The notes below the pieces were generated by a model. The model made no database searches and was not told where the DNA came from. It saw only the letters and a program-made list of their open reading frames with translations. Shown piece by piece: positions 23,491 through 27,157 of a DNA stretch of 32,000 bases (its first letter is position 1; every line of letters begins with the position of its first letter). This DNA is from an uncultured Actinomycetes bacterium (lineage in GTDB: Bacteria; Actinomycetota; Actinomycetes; S36-B12; CAIYMF01): positions 44,766-76,765 of the forward strand of contig CAVZGE010000011.1 of the NCBI GenBank assembly GCA_963774745.1, written 5' to 3'. Position numbers and translations under genes: made by a program.

Positions 23491-23570
23491 GCTGCCAGTG
23501 GGCCCGGCTACTGGTTGCGACCCGCCCGCCTCCCCCGCACGGGCGCTGGCGGCCGCCACCGGGTGACGTC
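23491..23570. repeat. pglX 3'-end segment duplicated at 22381-22447
   Basis: Covers the last ~21 codons and stop (TAG 23508-23510) of pglX plus 17 nt downstream. It is the partner of the 22381-22447 repeat, and the two bracket the nuclease-like gene. Confidence 0.55.
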
Positions 23571-26500
23571 GGCGCGGGTCAGTCCGACTCCGGCCAGGCG
23601 CTGGTCGAGCAGCCCGCGGATCGCCTGCGCGGGGCTGGCCTGGAACCCGGGCACCGGCTCGTCGTGCCACTGGAACAGCCACGGCTCCAGCTCGACCAGC
23701 CCGGCCAGCAGCGGCGTGATCCGGTCCGCGCCCCAGCCCTCGGCGTTGACCCGCTCCACGATCAACCGGGCCAGCGCCCGCGCCTGCTCCGCGTGGTCCC
23801 ACCCGGCCCAGCCGATCACCAGGCTGCCATCCCCCGACGGCTCCGCCCCCGGGTAGGAGACGAACCGCTCCTTGGGCACGTCCAGCTTCCCGCGGGCCTG
23901 CCAGTACGAGGCCCTCGTGAAGTCCTTGTTCGTGTACTTCGGCGGGACCGGGATCGCGACCTTCTCCCCCGCGTCCTCCCGACGCTGCAGCGCCCACACG
24001 TTCTCCCACTCCGCCCGCTTGCGCAGCCCGGAGTCGGTGTAGCGCAGCGCCGCCAGGTACGGGACGCACCTGTCCGCGACCAGCTTGCCGACGAGTGCGG
24101 CCAGGTTCGGGTCCTGCTCCCCGGTCAGCACCCGGGCCGCCTCCACCAGGTCCGCGTCGTGACGGACGGCGGCCGCGAGCTGCGCCGTCGACAGCACCCG
24201 CGGACCGCTCGCGTCGGACCACAGCGACGGCTCCTCCAACCGGTCGAGGATCCACTCGGAGACCGCCCGGGTCTCCATCACCTCCCACGACTCCGACGCC
24301 CACCGCCGCTTGAACTCCGGCCGCTCCAGCAGCCGGATCGCCGGGTTGGACGCGATCACGTCGAGGCGTCGCTGGACGGTAGCCCGGTAGTCGGCGGGCC
24401 AGTGGGCGGGGATCTCGGTGATCGGGACGCGACCCGTGCCGGTGTGAACCACGCCGTGTGACTCGTCGCCGGCCGCGACCCGCCGGGCCAGCACGATCTC
24501 GAACGCCCGCTCCCCCAGCGCGATGCCCGGCACCTCGCCCGCGATGGGTCAGGTCCTCGTCGATCAGGCCGTAGAGCCGGTAGACCTCCCAGTCGAGCTC
24601 CTCCTGCGCGGCGATCATCTCGGCGCGGATCCGCAGGTACTCGGCCCGGGCTGCGTCGAGAGCGGCACGGGACGGGGCACCCGCGGCGCACACCGCGGCT
24701 GGCGATCGACGCGGCCAACTGCTGGGCCAGGGAGTCCAGCCGGCGGCCCCACTCCAGGGGCAGCGCCGCGGGCAGCGGGAACTCCTCCAACTTCGTGCCC
24801 GTGAACTCGTAACCGTCGCTCCCAGGCTCATCTGCGATCCCGCCGCCGCATGCCCCACCGTCCGCCCTTGTTGTGGCAGACCTGCTTGAGCCAGAAGCAG
24901 GCCGTCGACGAGTTCAGCACCCCCAGCAACCCCAGGTGATCGTCCTCACTCGCCCCCGCCGGCAACTTGATCACCGGCGCGGACTGCTTGAACACCTTCC
25001 CACCCCGGTCCAGCACGAAGTGGTTGTGCGTCGCCACCTCCGCAAACGCGATCGACAACGGCGTCCGGAGCTTGCGACGCGATCATGCTGCCGACTCCGA
25101 CCAACGCAGCCCTCCTCCGTCGTAGCGCCTGCCGAACGTGGCGCTGTTCGCGAGGTGACGTCTCGCAGGGCCACATCCAGCGGCATCGCGCTCGGCATGC
25201 TCGACGGCACTGTCCGCGAGATCGGTCGTCGTATGCAGAAGACGCAGTCGGCTGCCTGCCGATCTGCGAAGTCCCGGACGACCTCGCCGACGACCATCGT
25301 CGGCACCAGTCGGCGTCAACGCCCGTAGTCGCTGAATGCGCCCGCGTCCGGCGAGGAAGACGTCGTCCTCCAGCGTGACGCTGGTGATGCCCGACGTAGC
25401 CGGTCGCTGACCACGCCCGCAGACCGCGCGGAGCTGGCATCCATCGGCTCCTTGACGTCGCCGGCACCACCACCAGCTGAGCGACCACGGGTGGGTCTTG
25501 AGGACGGTCCGGTCGAGGTCCGTGATCGGTGACGTACTCGCCGTCGAATCCGGGTTCGTCGATGTGGTCGACGATCTCGGTCCAGACCAGTCCCTTGGCG
25601 GGGTTGTCCGGCTGGCCGGGTTCACCGCGCACGCCGAGCACGGCGCGCACGGTCGGCGCCGACCGGGTCGGCGGCGACGTCCGACGAGGATGACGGTCGG
25701 GGTGCCGTGGCCGGGGATGTAGGCGCCGGAGGTGTCGATCACGTCGAGCAGGTCCACCGGGTTCGAGCGGGTCCGCCCCCGACAGCAGGCCCTCGATGAT
25801 CTTCGTGCCGAACTCGCGCTTCATGAACGAGTTGGACGTGATCTGCCCGACGAAGCCAGCTGGCAGCGTCGGCGCGTCGCCGCGGATCGCGAGCTGGAAG
25901 AACAGCTCCATGAACGGCACCGACAGCGCGTACTTGCCCGTTGGCAGGTGCTGTAGACCGCGCCGGTACGCCTCGTTGAGGGCCTTGTCCTTGACCGTGA
26001 TGTACGGCGGGTTGCCCACGACCACGTGGTACCGGCCGGCTTCGAGGATGCCGGGGTGCTCGTGGATGTCCTCGTTGCGGTAGTGGAAGGTGGCCGCCCC
26101 GGTGTCGTCGAACAGGGCGCCCTGGGCGACCCCGCCGAGCAGGGAGTCCCCGACCGCCAGGTGCAGGTCGTACGTCGGGCGCGTCCGCCAGCCGCGTGTA
26201 CCCGGCCGCGCGCAGGGCGGCGACCACCAGGCGGAAGCGGGCGATCGCCACCGCGAACGGGTTGATGTCCACGCCGTGCACCGAGTCCAGCGCGCGGCGC
26301 ACGTGCTCCCCCGCCGGGGCGCCCGGCTCGCGCTCCCGCCACGCGGCCAGCAGCCGGTCGAACGCGCCGAGCAGGAAGTGCCCGGACCCGCACGTCGGGT
26401 CGATCAGCCGCAGCCCGGGCAGCCCGAACTCGGCCAGTGCCGGGGTCAGGGTGCGGTCGAGGATGAACTCCTCGACGAAGGTCGGGGTCTGCAGCAGGGC

Positions 26501-27157
26501 GAACTTCTTCTTCGCCAGCTCGGAGAGGTCCTGGTACAGGTCGCCGAGGAACCGGGTGTCCAGGGTTGAGCTGTCCAGGGCGCGCAGGGGCTGACCGTCC
26601 GGGCCGGTCTGGCGCCAGTACCCCAGGATCTCCCGGCACGTGTCGTCACCGAGCGGCACCGACCACACCAGCGAGTGCTCGCGGTCCAGCACCCCGCCCG
26701 TGGCCGGCAGGTCGGCGAGGTGCCCGAACGCCTCCCGCAGCCAGTCGGCGGTGCCGCGGCGCGGGTCGGCGGCGTAGAACGCGGACTCCGCATCCACCGC
26801 CAACCGCAGACCCTCGCCCCGGCCGGCGATCCAGCGCCCGGCGACCAGGTCGTTGTCCTCGGCGAACCGGACGAACACCGCCGCCAGCACCCACGCGACC
26901 GCGCCCTGGGCGATCTCCCCGTCCCGCCACTCCGACCACGACAACCCCGTCCGCCCGGCAGCGAACGCCGTGTCGTACTCGTGACGCAACAGCATCGCCC
27001 ACGCGTCGGCAGGCGTCCGGGGAGCGAACTCCCACTCCAGGTCGTCGGGATTCCAGTCCTTTGTGACGGCGCCCGGCCCAAGCTCCGACCGCGCCCGCAG
27101 ATCAGCCTCCGCAGCGGCCACCTGCTTGCGCAGGTCGGCAGTCAGTTCCGCGCCCAT
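23508..27157 (-). pseudogene. pglX: BREX/Pgl N6-adenine DNA methyltransferase PglX, multiply frameshifted
   Basis: ATG 27157 with SD GGGGAG. The first ~330 aa are in one frame, including motif I LIDPTCGSGHFLLGAF. The frame then switches near 26170-26183, giving TYDLHLAVGDSLL..RYHVVVGNPPYITVKDK with motif IV NPPY. Further switches occur at 25755-25763 (VDLLDVIDTSGAYIPGHGTPTVILVG), ~25685 (VRAVLGVRGEPGQPDNPAKGLVWTEIVDHIDEPGFDGEYV), 25526-25533 (ITDLDRTVLKTHPWSLS) and 25473-25479 (GGGAGDVKEPMDA). Several more lie between 25400 and 25090, and there is an in-frame TGA at 25083-25085. The highly conserved-looking [39 protein letters not shown] follows. Later switches are at 24852-24868 (YEFTGTKLEEFPLPAALPLE), 24665-24712 (AEYLRIRAEMIAAQEELDWEVYRLYGLIDEDLT) and 24541-24550. 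The last ~345 aa run intact to TAG 23508. Confidence 0.85.

What the first reader, a model, noticed from the sequence alone, without database searches (positions are those of the whole stretch)
23508..27157. pglX methyltransferase is shattered by many frameshifts while the other BREX core genes stay open
Recognisable PglX sequence, including motif I and NPPY, can be followed across the whole 3.65 kb only by changing frame at least 8 times. By my reading the count is closer to 12, with an in-frame TGA at 25083-25085. Lesions are densest between 25090 and 25760. In contrast pglZ (2.9 kb), brxHI (2.1 kb), brxD (1.3 kb) and about 3 kb of pglW have no interruption. Peptide segments between lesions still look strongly conserved (e.g. 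[32 protein letters not shown]). BREX needs PglX for both modification and resistance. In Streptomyces coelicolor, Pgl phase-varies through a G-tract in pglX, and PglX activity has been reported to be toxic without PglZ, so pglX is a plausible target for inactivation. A dozen indels in one gene is still far beyond a phase switch. Three explanations are possible: long-standing decay of pglX alone (odd if its partners stay under selection), a localised assembly or sequencing problem, or a locally indel-prone process.
Basis: partly seen in the sequence, partly recalled or inferred. Interest (0 to 1): 0.7.

Follow-up and report, generated by a model that had tools for sequence, protein, structure and literature searches.

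The report
Broken pglX: probable long-read consensus errors
The BREX-2 methyltransferase gene pglX really is broken by about 17 one-base insertions in this sequence, but their pattern fits a local patch of long-read assembly error much better than biological decay, so the finding is probably ordinary.

Summary
A frameshift-aware alignment finds 15-17 frameshifts plus 1-3 in-frame stops in pglX (23508-27157, minus strand). All lie between 24429 and 26180; the outer ~950 nt at each end are clean. pglW (visible part), pglZ, brxD and brxHI are intact.

The lesions do not look like decay:
- Nearly all are single extra bases (15 of 15 against the closest intact relative), and they are not in homopolymers.
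- After frame correction the protein matches the NCBIfam BREX-2 PglX model end to end (1633 bits).
- In the shattered stretch 0 of 45 invariant and 2 of 130 highly conserved columns are violated.
- dN/dS there (0.34) is no higher than in neighbouring genes.

Three more frameshifts lie elsewhere in the window: the pglY 3' end, an NAD(P)H-binding gene and a DUF222-HNH gene. A 92% identical contig with Flye-style naming carries the same +1 signature across pglW, X, Y and Z (45 frameshifts). The closest relative in a JGI metagenome has a fully intact locus. The window's intact PglZ has no NCBI protein name and sits on a 797 kb ENA-submitted contig, which suggests an unannotated long-read MAG.

Best reading (about 0.75): a local cluster of consensus errors, perhaps seeded by TRD allele heterogeneity. 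No reads were available, so real inactivation is not excluded.

The parts
23508..27157 (-). pglX (BREX-2 adenine methyltransferase), not translatable as one frame in the sequence as given
   Evidence: After frame correction it matches NCBIfam NF033451 BREX_2_MTaseX at 1633 bits, covering profile positions 2-1183 of 1185 in one stretch. Frameshift-aware alignments.
24429..26180 (-). Shattered segment. It holds all 15-17 frameshifts (about 26179, 25962, 25940, 25767, 25661, 25527, 25475, 25393, 25313, 25237, 25170, 24860, 24706, 24537, 24458, 24442, 24429) and the 1-3 in-frame stops.
   Evidence: 14 of 17 are +1 against the profile; 15 of 15 are extra-base type against intact L168. Clustering P = 7e-5.
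25083..25085 (-). It is probably a by-product of two further compensating indels, not a point nonsense mutation.
   Evidence: The adjacent frame reads ...MIAS, matching relatives' ...YAS/YPS just before the conserved KLRTPLS.
25058..25507 (-). Hypervariable stretch, the presumed target-recognition domain (TRD). The allele differs from that of the otherwise 94-98% identical relative L087.
   Evidence: Sliding nucleotide identity is 76-80% here against 93-99% in the flanks. dS is 1.08 against 0.18-0.29. TRD position after the MTase domain is by analogy with BREX-1 PglX (PMC11341690).
26181..27157 (-). Clean N-terminal part of pglX (MmeI_Mtase N-terminal region and motif I at 26375-26401)
   Evidence: No frameshift calls. 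This ORF is protein P0001, 472 aa, of which the last ~140 aa are out of frame.
23508..24428 (-). Clean C-terminal part of pglX (DUF7008 region)
   Evidence: No frameshift calls. GC3 is 0.97.
29003..32000 (-). pglW (kinase); the gene runs off the right end of the window and is intact in the visible ~3 kb
   Evidence: Pkinase domain. NF033442 BREX_PglW at 866 bits. The frame is open to the window end. 0 frameshifts.
15667..19403 (-). pglY. It has one frameshift in the Pro-rich linker near the 3' end (about 15827-15900). The conserved C-terminus ...KVRITWRLE* (15670-15687, stop 15667-15669) is in another frame, and its GTGA overlap with the pglZ start is lost.
   Evidence: The NF047891 match stops at profile position 1222 of 1296. 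GC3 frame switch at 15670-15910.
12749..15670 (-). pglZ, intact
   Evidence: PglZ domain. NF033446 at 731 bits. 0 frameshifts against the profile and against L168. The 973 aa self-hit is P0121.
11430..12752 (-). brxD, intact
   Evidence: BrxC_BrxD. NF033438 at 654 bits. 93% aa identity to L168 with no gaps.
9337..11427 (-). brxHI-type DEAD/DEAH helicase, intact
   Evidence: DEAD and Helicase_C domains. 0 frameshifts against L168.
20856..22364 (+). DUF222-HNH endonuclease gene inserted between pglX and pglY; itself frameshifted near 21277 (+1 type)
   Evidence: GC3 frame switch. The Pfam DUF222 match spans the junction once the two frames are joined.
2025..2766 (+). NAD(P)H-binding (NmrA-like) gene with a +1-type frameshift near 2418; this is a lesion outside the BREX locus
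   Evidence: GC3 frame switch. A single NAD_binding_10 match covering profile positions 1-183 of 184 crosses the junction.

Best explanation
Most probably pglX is not broken in the organism. The ~17 extra bases look like a local patch of uncorrected single-base insertion errors in a long-read consensus, most likely from a metagenome assembly.

Proposed mechanism (inferred, not shown): over about 1.75 kb centred on the hypervariable target-recognition part of pglX, polishing had too few or too mixed reads. This could happen if co-occurring strains carry different TRD alleles. The raw insertion-type errors of the platform or assembler then survived in that stretch, while the flanks and neighbouring genes were polished cleanly.

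What is shown: the lesion spectrum, the lack of any evolutionary decay, lesions in other genes of the window, and the same signature spread over all BREX genes in a 92% identical contig. What is inferred: the sequencing technology of the source and the cause of the local polishing failure.
For: 1. Spectrum. Lesions are only 1-2 nt. 14 of 17 are +1 against the profile, and 15 of 15 are extra-base type against the intact close relative L168 (P = 3e-5 under no bias). They are not in homopolymers. pglX has no run of 6 or more bases, and the shattered segment has only 4 runs of 5 or more.

2. No decay.
- The corrected protein matches NF033451 end to end at 1633 bits.
- It is 61% identical to the orthologue consensus; intact metagenome orthologues score 54-69%.
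- In the shattered segment 0 of 45 invariant and 2 of 130 columns conserved at 90% or more are violated, the same as in intact relatives. Neutral drift long enough for 17 indels predicts 8-25 violations (P = 0.014 to 3e-9).
- dN/dS against L087 in the shattered non-TRD part is 0.34. The comparison values are 0.28 and 0.16 in the clean ends, and 0.24, 0.42 and 0.22 in pglY, pglZ and pglW.

3. The assembly has other frameshifts: the pglY 3' end, the NAD_binding_10 gene at about 2418 and the DUF222-HNH gene at about 21277. Two of these three are +1 type.

4. Relatives.
- L087 (ENA ERZ25039462, contig_10415; 92% nt identity in pglX) has 2, 17, 14 and 12 frameshifts in pglW, X, Y and Z. They are mostly +1 and not in homopolymers.
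- L080 and L081, also with Flye-style names, have 7-9 and 5-7 mostly +1 frameshifts in pglX.
- L168, the closest relative found in a JGI metagenome (presumed short-read), has an intact 1178 aa pglX and a canonical locus.
- 56 of 58 genome loci have an open ~1200 aa ORF. All 80 JGI metagenome loci matched essentially the whole query in one stretch.

5. Source. The window's intact PglZ (P0121) and P0001 carry no NCBI name, list 'ncbi, ena' as sources and sit on a 797,437 bp contig. That fits an unannotated ENA-submitted long-read MAG.

6. TRD heterogeneity. The window and L087 are 94-98% identical except for 25058-25507, which is 76-80% identical.

7. Literature. Long-read consensus indels cause frameshifts, more so at low coverage and in soil data (PMC9262707; PMC13087279).
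Against: - No reads, coverage or quality values were available, so the artefact is inferred, not shown.
- I could not identify the source record or its technology.
- The concentration is extreme: about 10 lesions per kb against 0.17 per kb elsewhere, with sharp edges. It extends ~650 nt either side of the divergent TRD into stretches that are 94-99% identical to L087, so strain heterogeneity at the TRD does not fully explain its extent.
- GC3 in the corrected frame falls to 0.82 in columns 451-673. This could be undetected frameshifts, a foreign TRD allele, or some real drift.
- pglX is a known natural target of inactivation: IS insertions in L082-L084, G-tract phase variation and PglX toxicity (PMC4365076).
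- The relatives with broken pglX were found through a search that listed only ORFs of 576 aa or shorter. Their pglX-centred lesions are therefore partly an ascertainment effect and are weak independent support.
Confidence: 0.75

Rival explanations
1. Real, recent multi-hit pseudogenisation. pglX was knocked out, perhaps because it is toxic or because loss of BREX was favoured. It then collected further small insertions under relaxed selection, while pglW, Y, Z, brxD and brxHI stayed under selection.
For: pglX is often inactivated in nature: IS insertions in L082, L083 and L084, and a 1-nt tract difference between two Micromonospora zhanjiangensis assemblies. PglX is toxic without PglZ and phase-varies (PMC4365076). 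[quoted passage not shown] The neighbours are clean.
Against: - There is no excess of amino-acid change at conserved columns and dN/dS is not raised.
- Lesions are only 1-2 nt with near-total insertion bias. From general knowledge, not tested here, bacterial pseudogenes show a deletion bias and a broad range of indel sizes.
- Lesions are confined to the middle 48% of the gene (P = 7e-5).
- The same signature hits every BREX gene in L087 and other genes in this window.
Confidence: 0.15
2. A real, locally insertion-prone mutational process acting on the middle of pglX. An example would be repeated break repair by mutagenic end-joining or error-prone synthesis. It would produce many +1 insertions quickly, without accompanying substitutions.
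For: It would account for the tight clustering, the +1 bias and the absence of substitution-level decay. Three contigs show pglX-centred clusters.
Against: - No such targeted process is known to me, and I found no repeats, tracts or inverted repeats that could direct one.
- In L087 the same lesion type is spread over about 14 kb of four genes, so it is not specific to pglX.
- The contigs with pglX-centred clusters were selected for having broken pglX.
- The closest JGI-metagenome relative is intact.
Confidence: 0.06
3. Phase variation or recoding. The frameshifts are slippery tracts that switch pglX on and off, or they are bypassed during expression by programmed frameshifting or transcriptional slippage.
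For: Pgl in S. coelicolor phase-varies through a G tract in pglX (PMC4365076). M. zhanjiangensis has a C5/C6 tract exactly at the GNPPY codons.
Against: pglX here has no homopolymer of 6 or more bases, and NPPY is encoded without a tract. The 17 shifts have no common motif. Their net shift is not a multiple of three. No known system decodes a gene through that many shifts.
Confidence: 0.01

Closest known systems
Frameshift (indel) errors in long-read consensus assemblies, as measured by IDEEL-type truncated-protein tests (PMC9262707; PMC13087279)
   Same: Single-base indels break ORFs while the encoded protein stays perfectly conserved after correction. Other genes in the same sequence are affected. 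A sibling contig (L087) is riddled with the same events. Short-read relatives are intact.
   Different: The errors here are concentrated in 1.75 kb rather than spread out. They are insertions at non-homopolymer sites, whereas the literature I read stresses homopolymer indels. The technology of the source is not known to me.
Pgl / BREX type 2 of Streptomyces coelicolor, with G-tract phase variation in pglX (Sumby & Smith 2003, as cited in PMC4365076)
   Same: Same system and gene set (pglW, X, Y, Z plus brxD and brxHI). pglX is the gene that loses its frame.
   Different: Phase variation is one reversible length change in one homopolymer. Here there are ~17 non-tract insertions, no tract, and no possibility of reversion.
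Natural inactivation of pglX by insertion sequences (seen here in L082, L083 and Solwaraspora sp. WMMA2080 L084)
   Same: pglX is the disrupted BREX-2 gene, in some cases with partner genes retained.
   Different: Those are single large IS insertions in contigs with HiFi-assembler-style names or in a complete isolate genome. They are not many 1-nt insertions.
Allelic variation of the PglX target-recognition domain (Went et al. 2024, PMC11341690)
   Same: The segment 25058-25507 is a divergent allele in an otherwise near-identical gene. This is as expected if specificity varies between strains.
   Different: TRD variation changes specificity in frame. It does not by itself create frameshifts. 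I invoke it only as a possible cause of mixed reads.

Membership tests
BREX type 2 (Pgl) defence locus | Gene set pglW (kinase), pglX (methyltransferase), pglY (ATPase), pglZ (phosphatase), brxD, brxHI | tested here: met
   Pfam and NCBIfam matches to all six. The gene order matches relatives L080 and L168. Extra genes are inserted between pglW and pglX, and between pglX and pglY.
BREX-2 PglX (NCBIfam NF033451) | End-to-end match to the family model, including motif I and NPPY | tested here: met
   1633 bits against a cut-off of 400, covering profile positions 2-1183 of 1185, but only after frame correction. Motifs lie at 26375-26401 and 26002-26013.
BREX-2 PglX (functional gene) | A single open reading frame of about 1200 codons | tested here: not met
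   15-17 frameshifts plus 1-3 stops in the sequence as given. Whether this is true of the organism is not testable here.
Phase-variable pglX (S. coelicolor type) | A long homopolymer tract whose length change causes the frame loss | tested here: not met
   No run of 6 or more bases in 23508-27157, and the lesions are not in runs.
Long-standing natural pseudogene | Relaxed selection: excess changes at conserved residues and dN/dS approaching 1 | tested here: not met
   0 of 45 invariant and 2 of 130 conserved columns violated. dN/dS is 0.34 against 0.16-0.42 in intact parts and neighbours. Expected 8-25 violations.
Long-standing natural pseudogene | Mixed indel sizes with a deletion bias (the expectation is from general knowledge) | tested here: not met
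   All lesions are 1-2 nt. 14 of 17, or 15 of 15, are extra bases.
Long-read consensus error cluster | Single-base indels with no evolutionary footprint; the same signature elsewhere in the assembly and in sibling assemblies | tested here: met
Long-read consensus error cluster | Reads, coverage or quality values show that the extra bases are unsupported | not testable with these tools
   There is no read data. The source record could not be retrieved.

The most novel reading that the evidence does not exclude
The ~17 single-base insertions are real. In a natural actinobacterial population the middle of pglX would then have been hit repeatedly by an insertion-biased, substitution-free mutational process, or by serial selection for ever firmer inactivation, while pglW, pglZ, brxD and brxHI (and nearly all of pglY) stay under selection. 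That would imply a BREX-2 remnant that works without its methyltransferase and a targeted way of silencing a toxic defence gene.
Probability: 0.07. Interest if true: 0.6.

Novelty: not a real feature. Interest (0 to 1): 0.12.

Why it matters
If the lesions were real, this would be a methyltransferase-less BREX-2 locus with an unexplained local insertion process. That would bear on PglX toxicity and on what the other Pgl proteins do alone.

As it stands, the value is mostly cautionary. Defence-island genes with strain-variable specificity domains may be places where long-read metagenome consensus fails locally. A 'shattered' gene whose protein is perfectly conserved after frame correction should be read as an assembly problem until reads say otherwise. 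Counting such loci as pseudogenes would inflate estimates of defence-system decay.

Tried and rejected
**Identifying the source**
- Exact look-ups of P0001, of the 185 aa ORF and of the AAA ATPase found no contig on record.
- The cluster look-up gave no accession or name.
- The genome-contig scan did not return the source genome; the best hit was 69% identical.

**Looking for a near-identical short-read copy**
- The JGI metagenome scan with the corrected middle segment found nothing above 62% identity.
- The PglZ search was more useful and led to L168.

**Structural causes**
- I found no second pglX copy, no invertible segment and no meaningful direct or inverted repeats in 20.5-29.5 kb.
- There is no homopolymer tract in pglX.

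**Shared lesions with relatives**
- Frameshift positions in L080, L081 and L087 are essentially all different from those in the window. I therefore dropped both an inherited pseudogene and a site-specific process.

**Analyses that were too noisy or misleading**
- A five-sequence DNA alignment was too noisy to place indels. Pairwise alignments were usable only in conserved stretches.
- Plain tblastn understated the lesions, showing 3-7 frame blocks, because gapped HSPs read through short frame excursions.
- An apparent compensated frameshift pair in pglZ against L080 was not reproduced with the profile or with L168. I treat it as an alignment artefact in a variable linker.
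Full report
**What is there**

The window is about 73% G+C and carries a BREX type 2 (Pgl) locus on the minus strand. In order of transcription the genes are:
- pglW, from beyond 32000 down to 29003;
- pglX, 27157-23508;
- pglY, 19403-15667;
- pglZ, 15670-12749;
- brxD, 12752-11430;
- a brxHI-type helicase, 11427-9337.

All six are identified by Pfam and NCBIfam. Two blocks of extra genes sit inside the locus:
- A lower-GC stretch (27.0-29.0 kb) with a HipA-like kinase on the plus strand, between pglW and pglX.
- About 3.8 kb between pglX and pglY, with two small ORFs, a DUF222-HNH endonuclease gene and an AAA ATPase gene.

**Checking the observation**

The ORF list and tblastn with intact orthologues show PglX homology running through all three minus frames. 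To count lesions properly I wrote a frameshift-aware profile-to-DNA aligner. I built a profile from 43 intact orthologues taken from genome loci.
- The aligner finds 17 frameshifts at penalties 12 and 16, and 10 at penalty 20, plus the TGA at 25083-25085.
- The short recovered peptides between shifts match the consensus, for example YR/AVYSTCQ\GKYALSV and ES/TAWFT/RHGS/VPITEIP.
- Against L168, the closest intact full-length relative (80% aa identity), the count is 15 frameshifts at every penalty plus three stops.
- The aligner is specific. In 25 independent JGI-metagenome (presumed short-read) pglX loci not used for the profile it called no frameshift and no stop.

The TGA sits in a 27-nt stretch whose neighbouring frame reads ...MIAS before the conserved KLRTPLS. 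It is more likely the trace of two further indels than a nonsense substitution.

**Properties of the lesions**

- *Position.* They are confined to 26180-24429, which is 48% of the gene. The first 977 nt and last 921 nt are clean. For 17 uniformly placed points the probability of so narrow a range is 7e-5.
- *Size and direction.* All are 1-2 nt. 14 of 17 are one extra base against the profile, and 15 of 15 are extra-base type against L168.
- *Context.* They are not in homopolymers. pglX has no run of 6 or more bases, and no repeat or inverted repeat suggests a switch.
- *No evolutionary footprint.*
  - The corrected protein matches NF033451 end to end at 1633 bits.
  - It is 61% identical to the consensus, inside the 54-69% range of intact orthologues.
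  - In the shattered segment none of 45 invariant columns and 2 of 130 columns conserved at 90% or more are violated, as in intact relatives.
  - If 17 indels had accumulated neutrally with 3-10 substitutions per indel, 8-25 violations would be expected (P = 0.014 to 3e-9).
  - Against the 92% identical relative L087, dN/dS in the shattered non-TRD part is 0.34. It is 0.28 and 0.16 in the clean ends, and 0.24, 0.42 and 0.22 in pglY, pglZ and pglW.
- *One soft spot.* GC3 in the corrected frame is 0.95-0.97 at both ends but 0.82 in columns 451-673. This is the most divergent part, and the part where I suspect undetected frame excursions.

**Are the neighbours clean?**

The visible part of pglW, plus pglZ, brxD and brxHI, show no frameshift against profiles, L080 or L168.

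pglY is not clean. Its ORF stays open to 15786, but the conserved C-terminus ...PDEVTLDL...KVRITWRLE* is in another frame. That frame ends at 15667-15669, in a GTGA overlap with the pglZ start. The switch lies in the Pro-rich linker at about 15827-15900.

A GC3-frame Viterbi scan pointed to two more cases, and Pfam confirmed both:
- An NAD(P)H-binding gene whose single NAD_binding_10 match crosses a +1-type junction near 2418.
- The DUF222-HNH gene, with a +1-type junction near 21277.

Lesions therefore exist elsewhere at about 0.17 per kb, against 9.7 per kb in mid-pglX (binomial P = 2e-15).

**Relatives**

| Locus | Source | pglX state | Other BREX genes |
|---|---|---|---|
| 58 genome loci | genome contigs | 56 have an open ~1200-codon ORF | not assessed |
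| 80 JGI loci | metagenome contigs | each matched nearly the whole 646 aa middle-segment query | not assessed |
| L168 | JGI 3300048585 | intact, 1178 aa | canonical locus; PglY 90%, BrxD 93% aa identity to the window |
| L087 | ENA ERZ25039462, contig_10415; 92% nt identity in pglX | 17 frameshifts | pglW 2, pglY 14, pglZ 12 |
| L080 | ERZ25039514, contig_28217 | 7-9 mostly +1 frameshifts | one in brxD |
| L081 | ERZ26871208, contig_55285_np1212 | 5-7 mostly +1 frameshifts | one in pglZ |
| L082, L083 | contigs with HiFi-assembler-style names | broken by IS elements | L082: pglW and pglY also carry IS insertions; L083: pglW intact |
| L084 | complete isolate genome | broken by IS elements | not assessed |

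- In L087 the frameshifts are mostly +1 and at non-homopolymer sites, and its non-BREX genes look fragmented too.
- Lesion positions are not shared between contigs.
- Two assemblies of Micromonospora zhanjiangensis differ over 13 kb by a single base. It is a C5 versus C6 run at the GNPPY codons of pglX.

One caveat matters here. My first protein search listed only hits of 576 aa or shorter. The contigs with broken pglX were therefore found because they were broken, and their pglX-centred pattern is weak independent evidence. L087 and L168 are the informative comparisons.

**The source**

The window's ORF P0001 and its intact PglZ (P0121) list 'ncbi, ena' as sources. They sit on a 797,437 bp contig and have no NCBI protein name. 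An intact PglZ in an annotated isolate genome would normally carry a name. This fits an unannotated ENA-submitted MAG with long contigs, that is, long reads. This is inference; I could not retrieve the record.

**Explanation**

The best-supported reading is a local patch of uncorrected insertion errors in a long-read consensus.
- *Shown:* the error-like spectrum, the absence of decay, the background frameshifts in this window, and the identical signature across a sibling contig.
- *Inferred:* why it is local. One plausible cause is mixed reads. The window and L087 are 94-98% identical across pglX, pglY and pglZ except at 25058-25507 (76-80% identity; dS 1.08). That segment is a swapped allele of what is probably the target-recognition domain (TRD placement by analogy with PMC11341690). 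Co-occurring strains with different TRDs would starve or confuse polishing there.
- *Limits:* this does not fully explain why lesions extend ~650 nt either side of the divergent segment.
- *Literature:* long-read consensus indels truncate proteins, especially at low coverage and in soil data (PMC9262707; PMC13087279).

**Rivals**

- *Real recent pseudogenisation (about 0.15).* It has biological plausibility: PglX toxicity and phase variation (PMC4365076) and natural IS knock-outs. But it does not predict a pure +1 spectrum, mid-gene confinement or zero decay.
- *A real local insertion-prone process (about 0.06).* It would explain those three features. But it has no known mechanism and no directing sequence feature, and L087 shows the lesion type is not specific to pglX.
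- *Tract-based phase variation or recoding.* Excluded by the sequence.

**Verdict**

Of the three options offered, the sequencing or assembly problem is the one the evidence favours. I rate this as probably not a real biological feature and of low interest. About 7% probability remains for a truly unusual, real phenomenon. Read-level data for 23.4-27.3 kb would settle it.

Noticed in passing
window 15667-15910: pglY has a frameshift in its Pro-rich linker. The conserved last ~45 residues (...KVRITWRLE*) and the GTGA stop/start overlap with pglZ are out of frame.
   Followed up: yes
window 2025-2766 (+): An NAD(P)H-binding (NmrA-like) gene is split by a +1-type frameshift near 2418. A single Pfam NAD_binding_10 match crosses the junction.
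   Followed up: yes
window 20856-22364 (+): A DUF222-HNH endonuclease gene is inserted between pglX and pglY on the opposite strand. It is itself frameshifted near 21277.
   Followed up: yes
window 19478-20653 (-), 22268-22892 (-), 22898-23455 (-): An AAA_16/AAA_22 ATPase and two small ORFs without family matches sit between pglX and pglY. Relatives L082 and L083 also carry an AAA_22 gene downstream of pglX, whereas L080 and L168 do not. These may be accessory cargo of BREX-2 loci.
   Followed up: partly
window 27048-29011, HipA-like ORF at about 27326-28168 (+): A lower-GC (66-70%) insert between pglW and pglX encodes a HipA_C-like kinase. A following ORF (28027-28932) has a weak HIRAN match. 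L082 and L083 have a HipA gene plus an HTH gene next to pglW.
   Followed up: partly
window 25058-25507 vs L087: A 450 nt segment of pglX is only 76-80% identical between two otherwise 94-98% identical loci (dS about 1.1). This looks like a swapped specificity (TRD) allele.
   Followed up: partly
L085 7073 vs L040 (Micromonospora zhanjiangensis, two assemblies): Over 13,081 nt the two assemblies differ by one base. It is a C5 versus C6 run inside the GNPPY codons of pglX (AACCCCCCG), which breaks the gene in one assembly. It could be a phase-variation tract at the catalytic motif or a homopolymer miscall.
   Followed up: partly
L082, L083, L084: pglX is interrupted by IS elements (IS1595-type, a DDE_Tnp_1 (IS4-type) transposase, IS66-family and rve-type) in two metagenome contigs with HiFi-assembler-style names and in Solwaraspora sp. 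WMMA2080. In L082 pglW and pglY also carry IS3-type insertions.
   Followed up: no
L086 (Streptomyces violaceusniger BJHW01000001): pglX carries four -1 frameshifts (profile columns 308, 323, 464, 509). This is the opposite direction to the +1 bias of the contigs with Flye-style names.
   Followed up: no
window 6175-6784 (-) and 6914-7804 (-): What looks like only the C-terminal half of an ABC-2-type permease lies directly downstream of an acidic GGxGxD-repeat (RTX-like) protein gene. The permease may be truncated or have a further frame problem.
   Followed up: no
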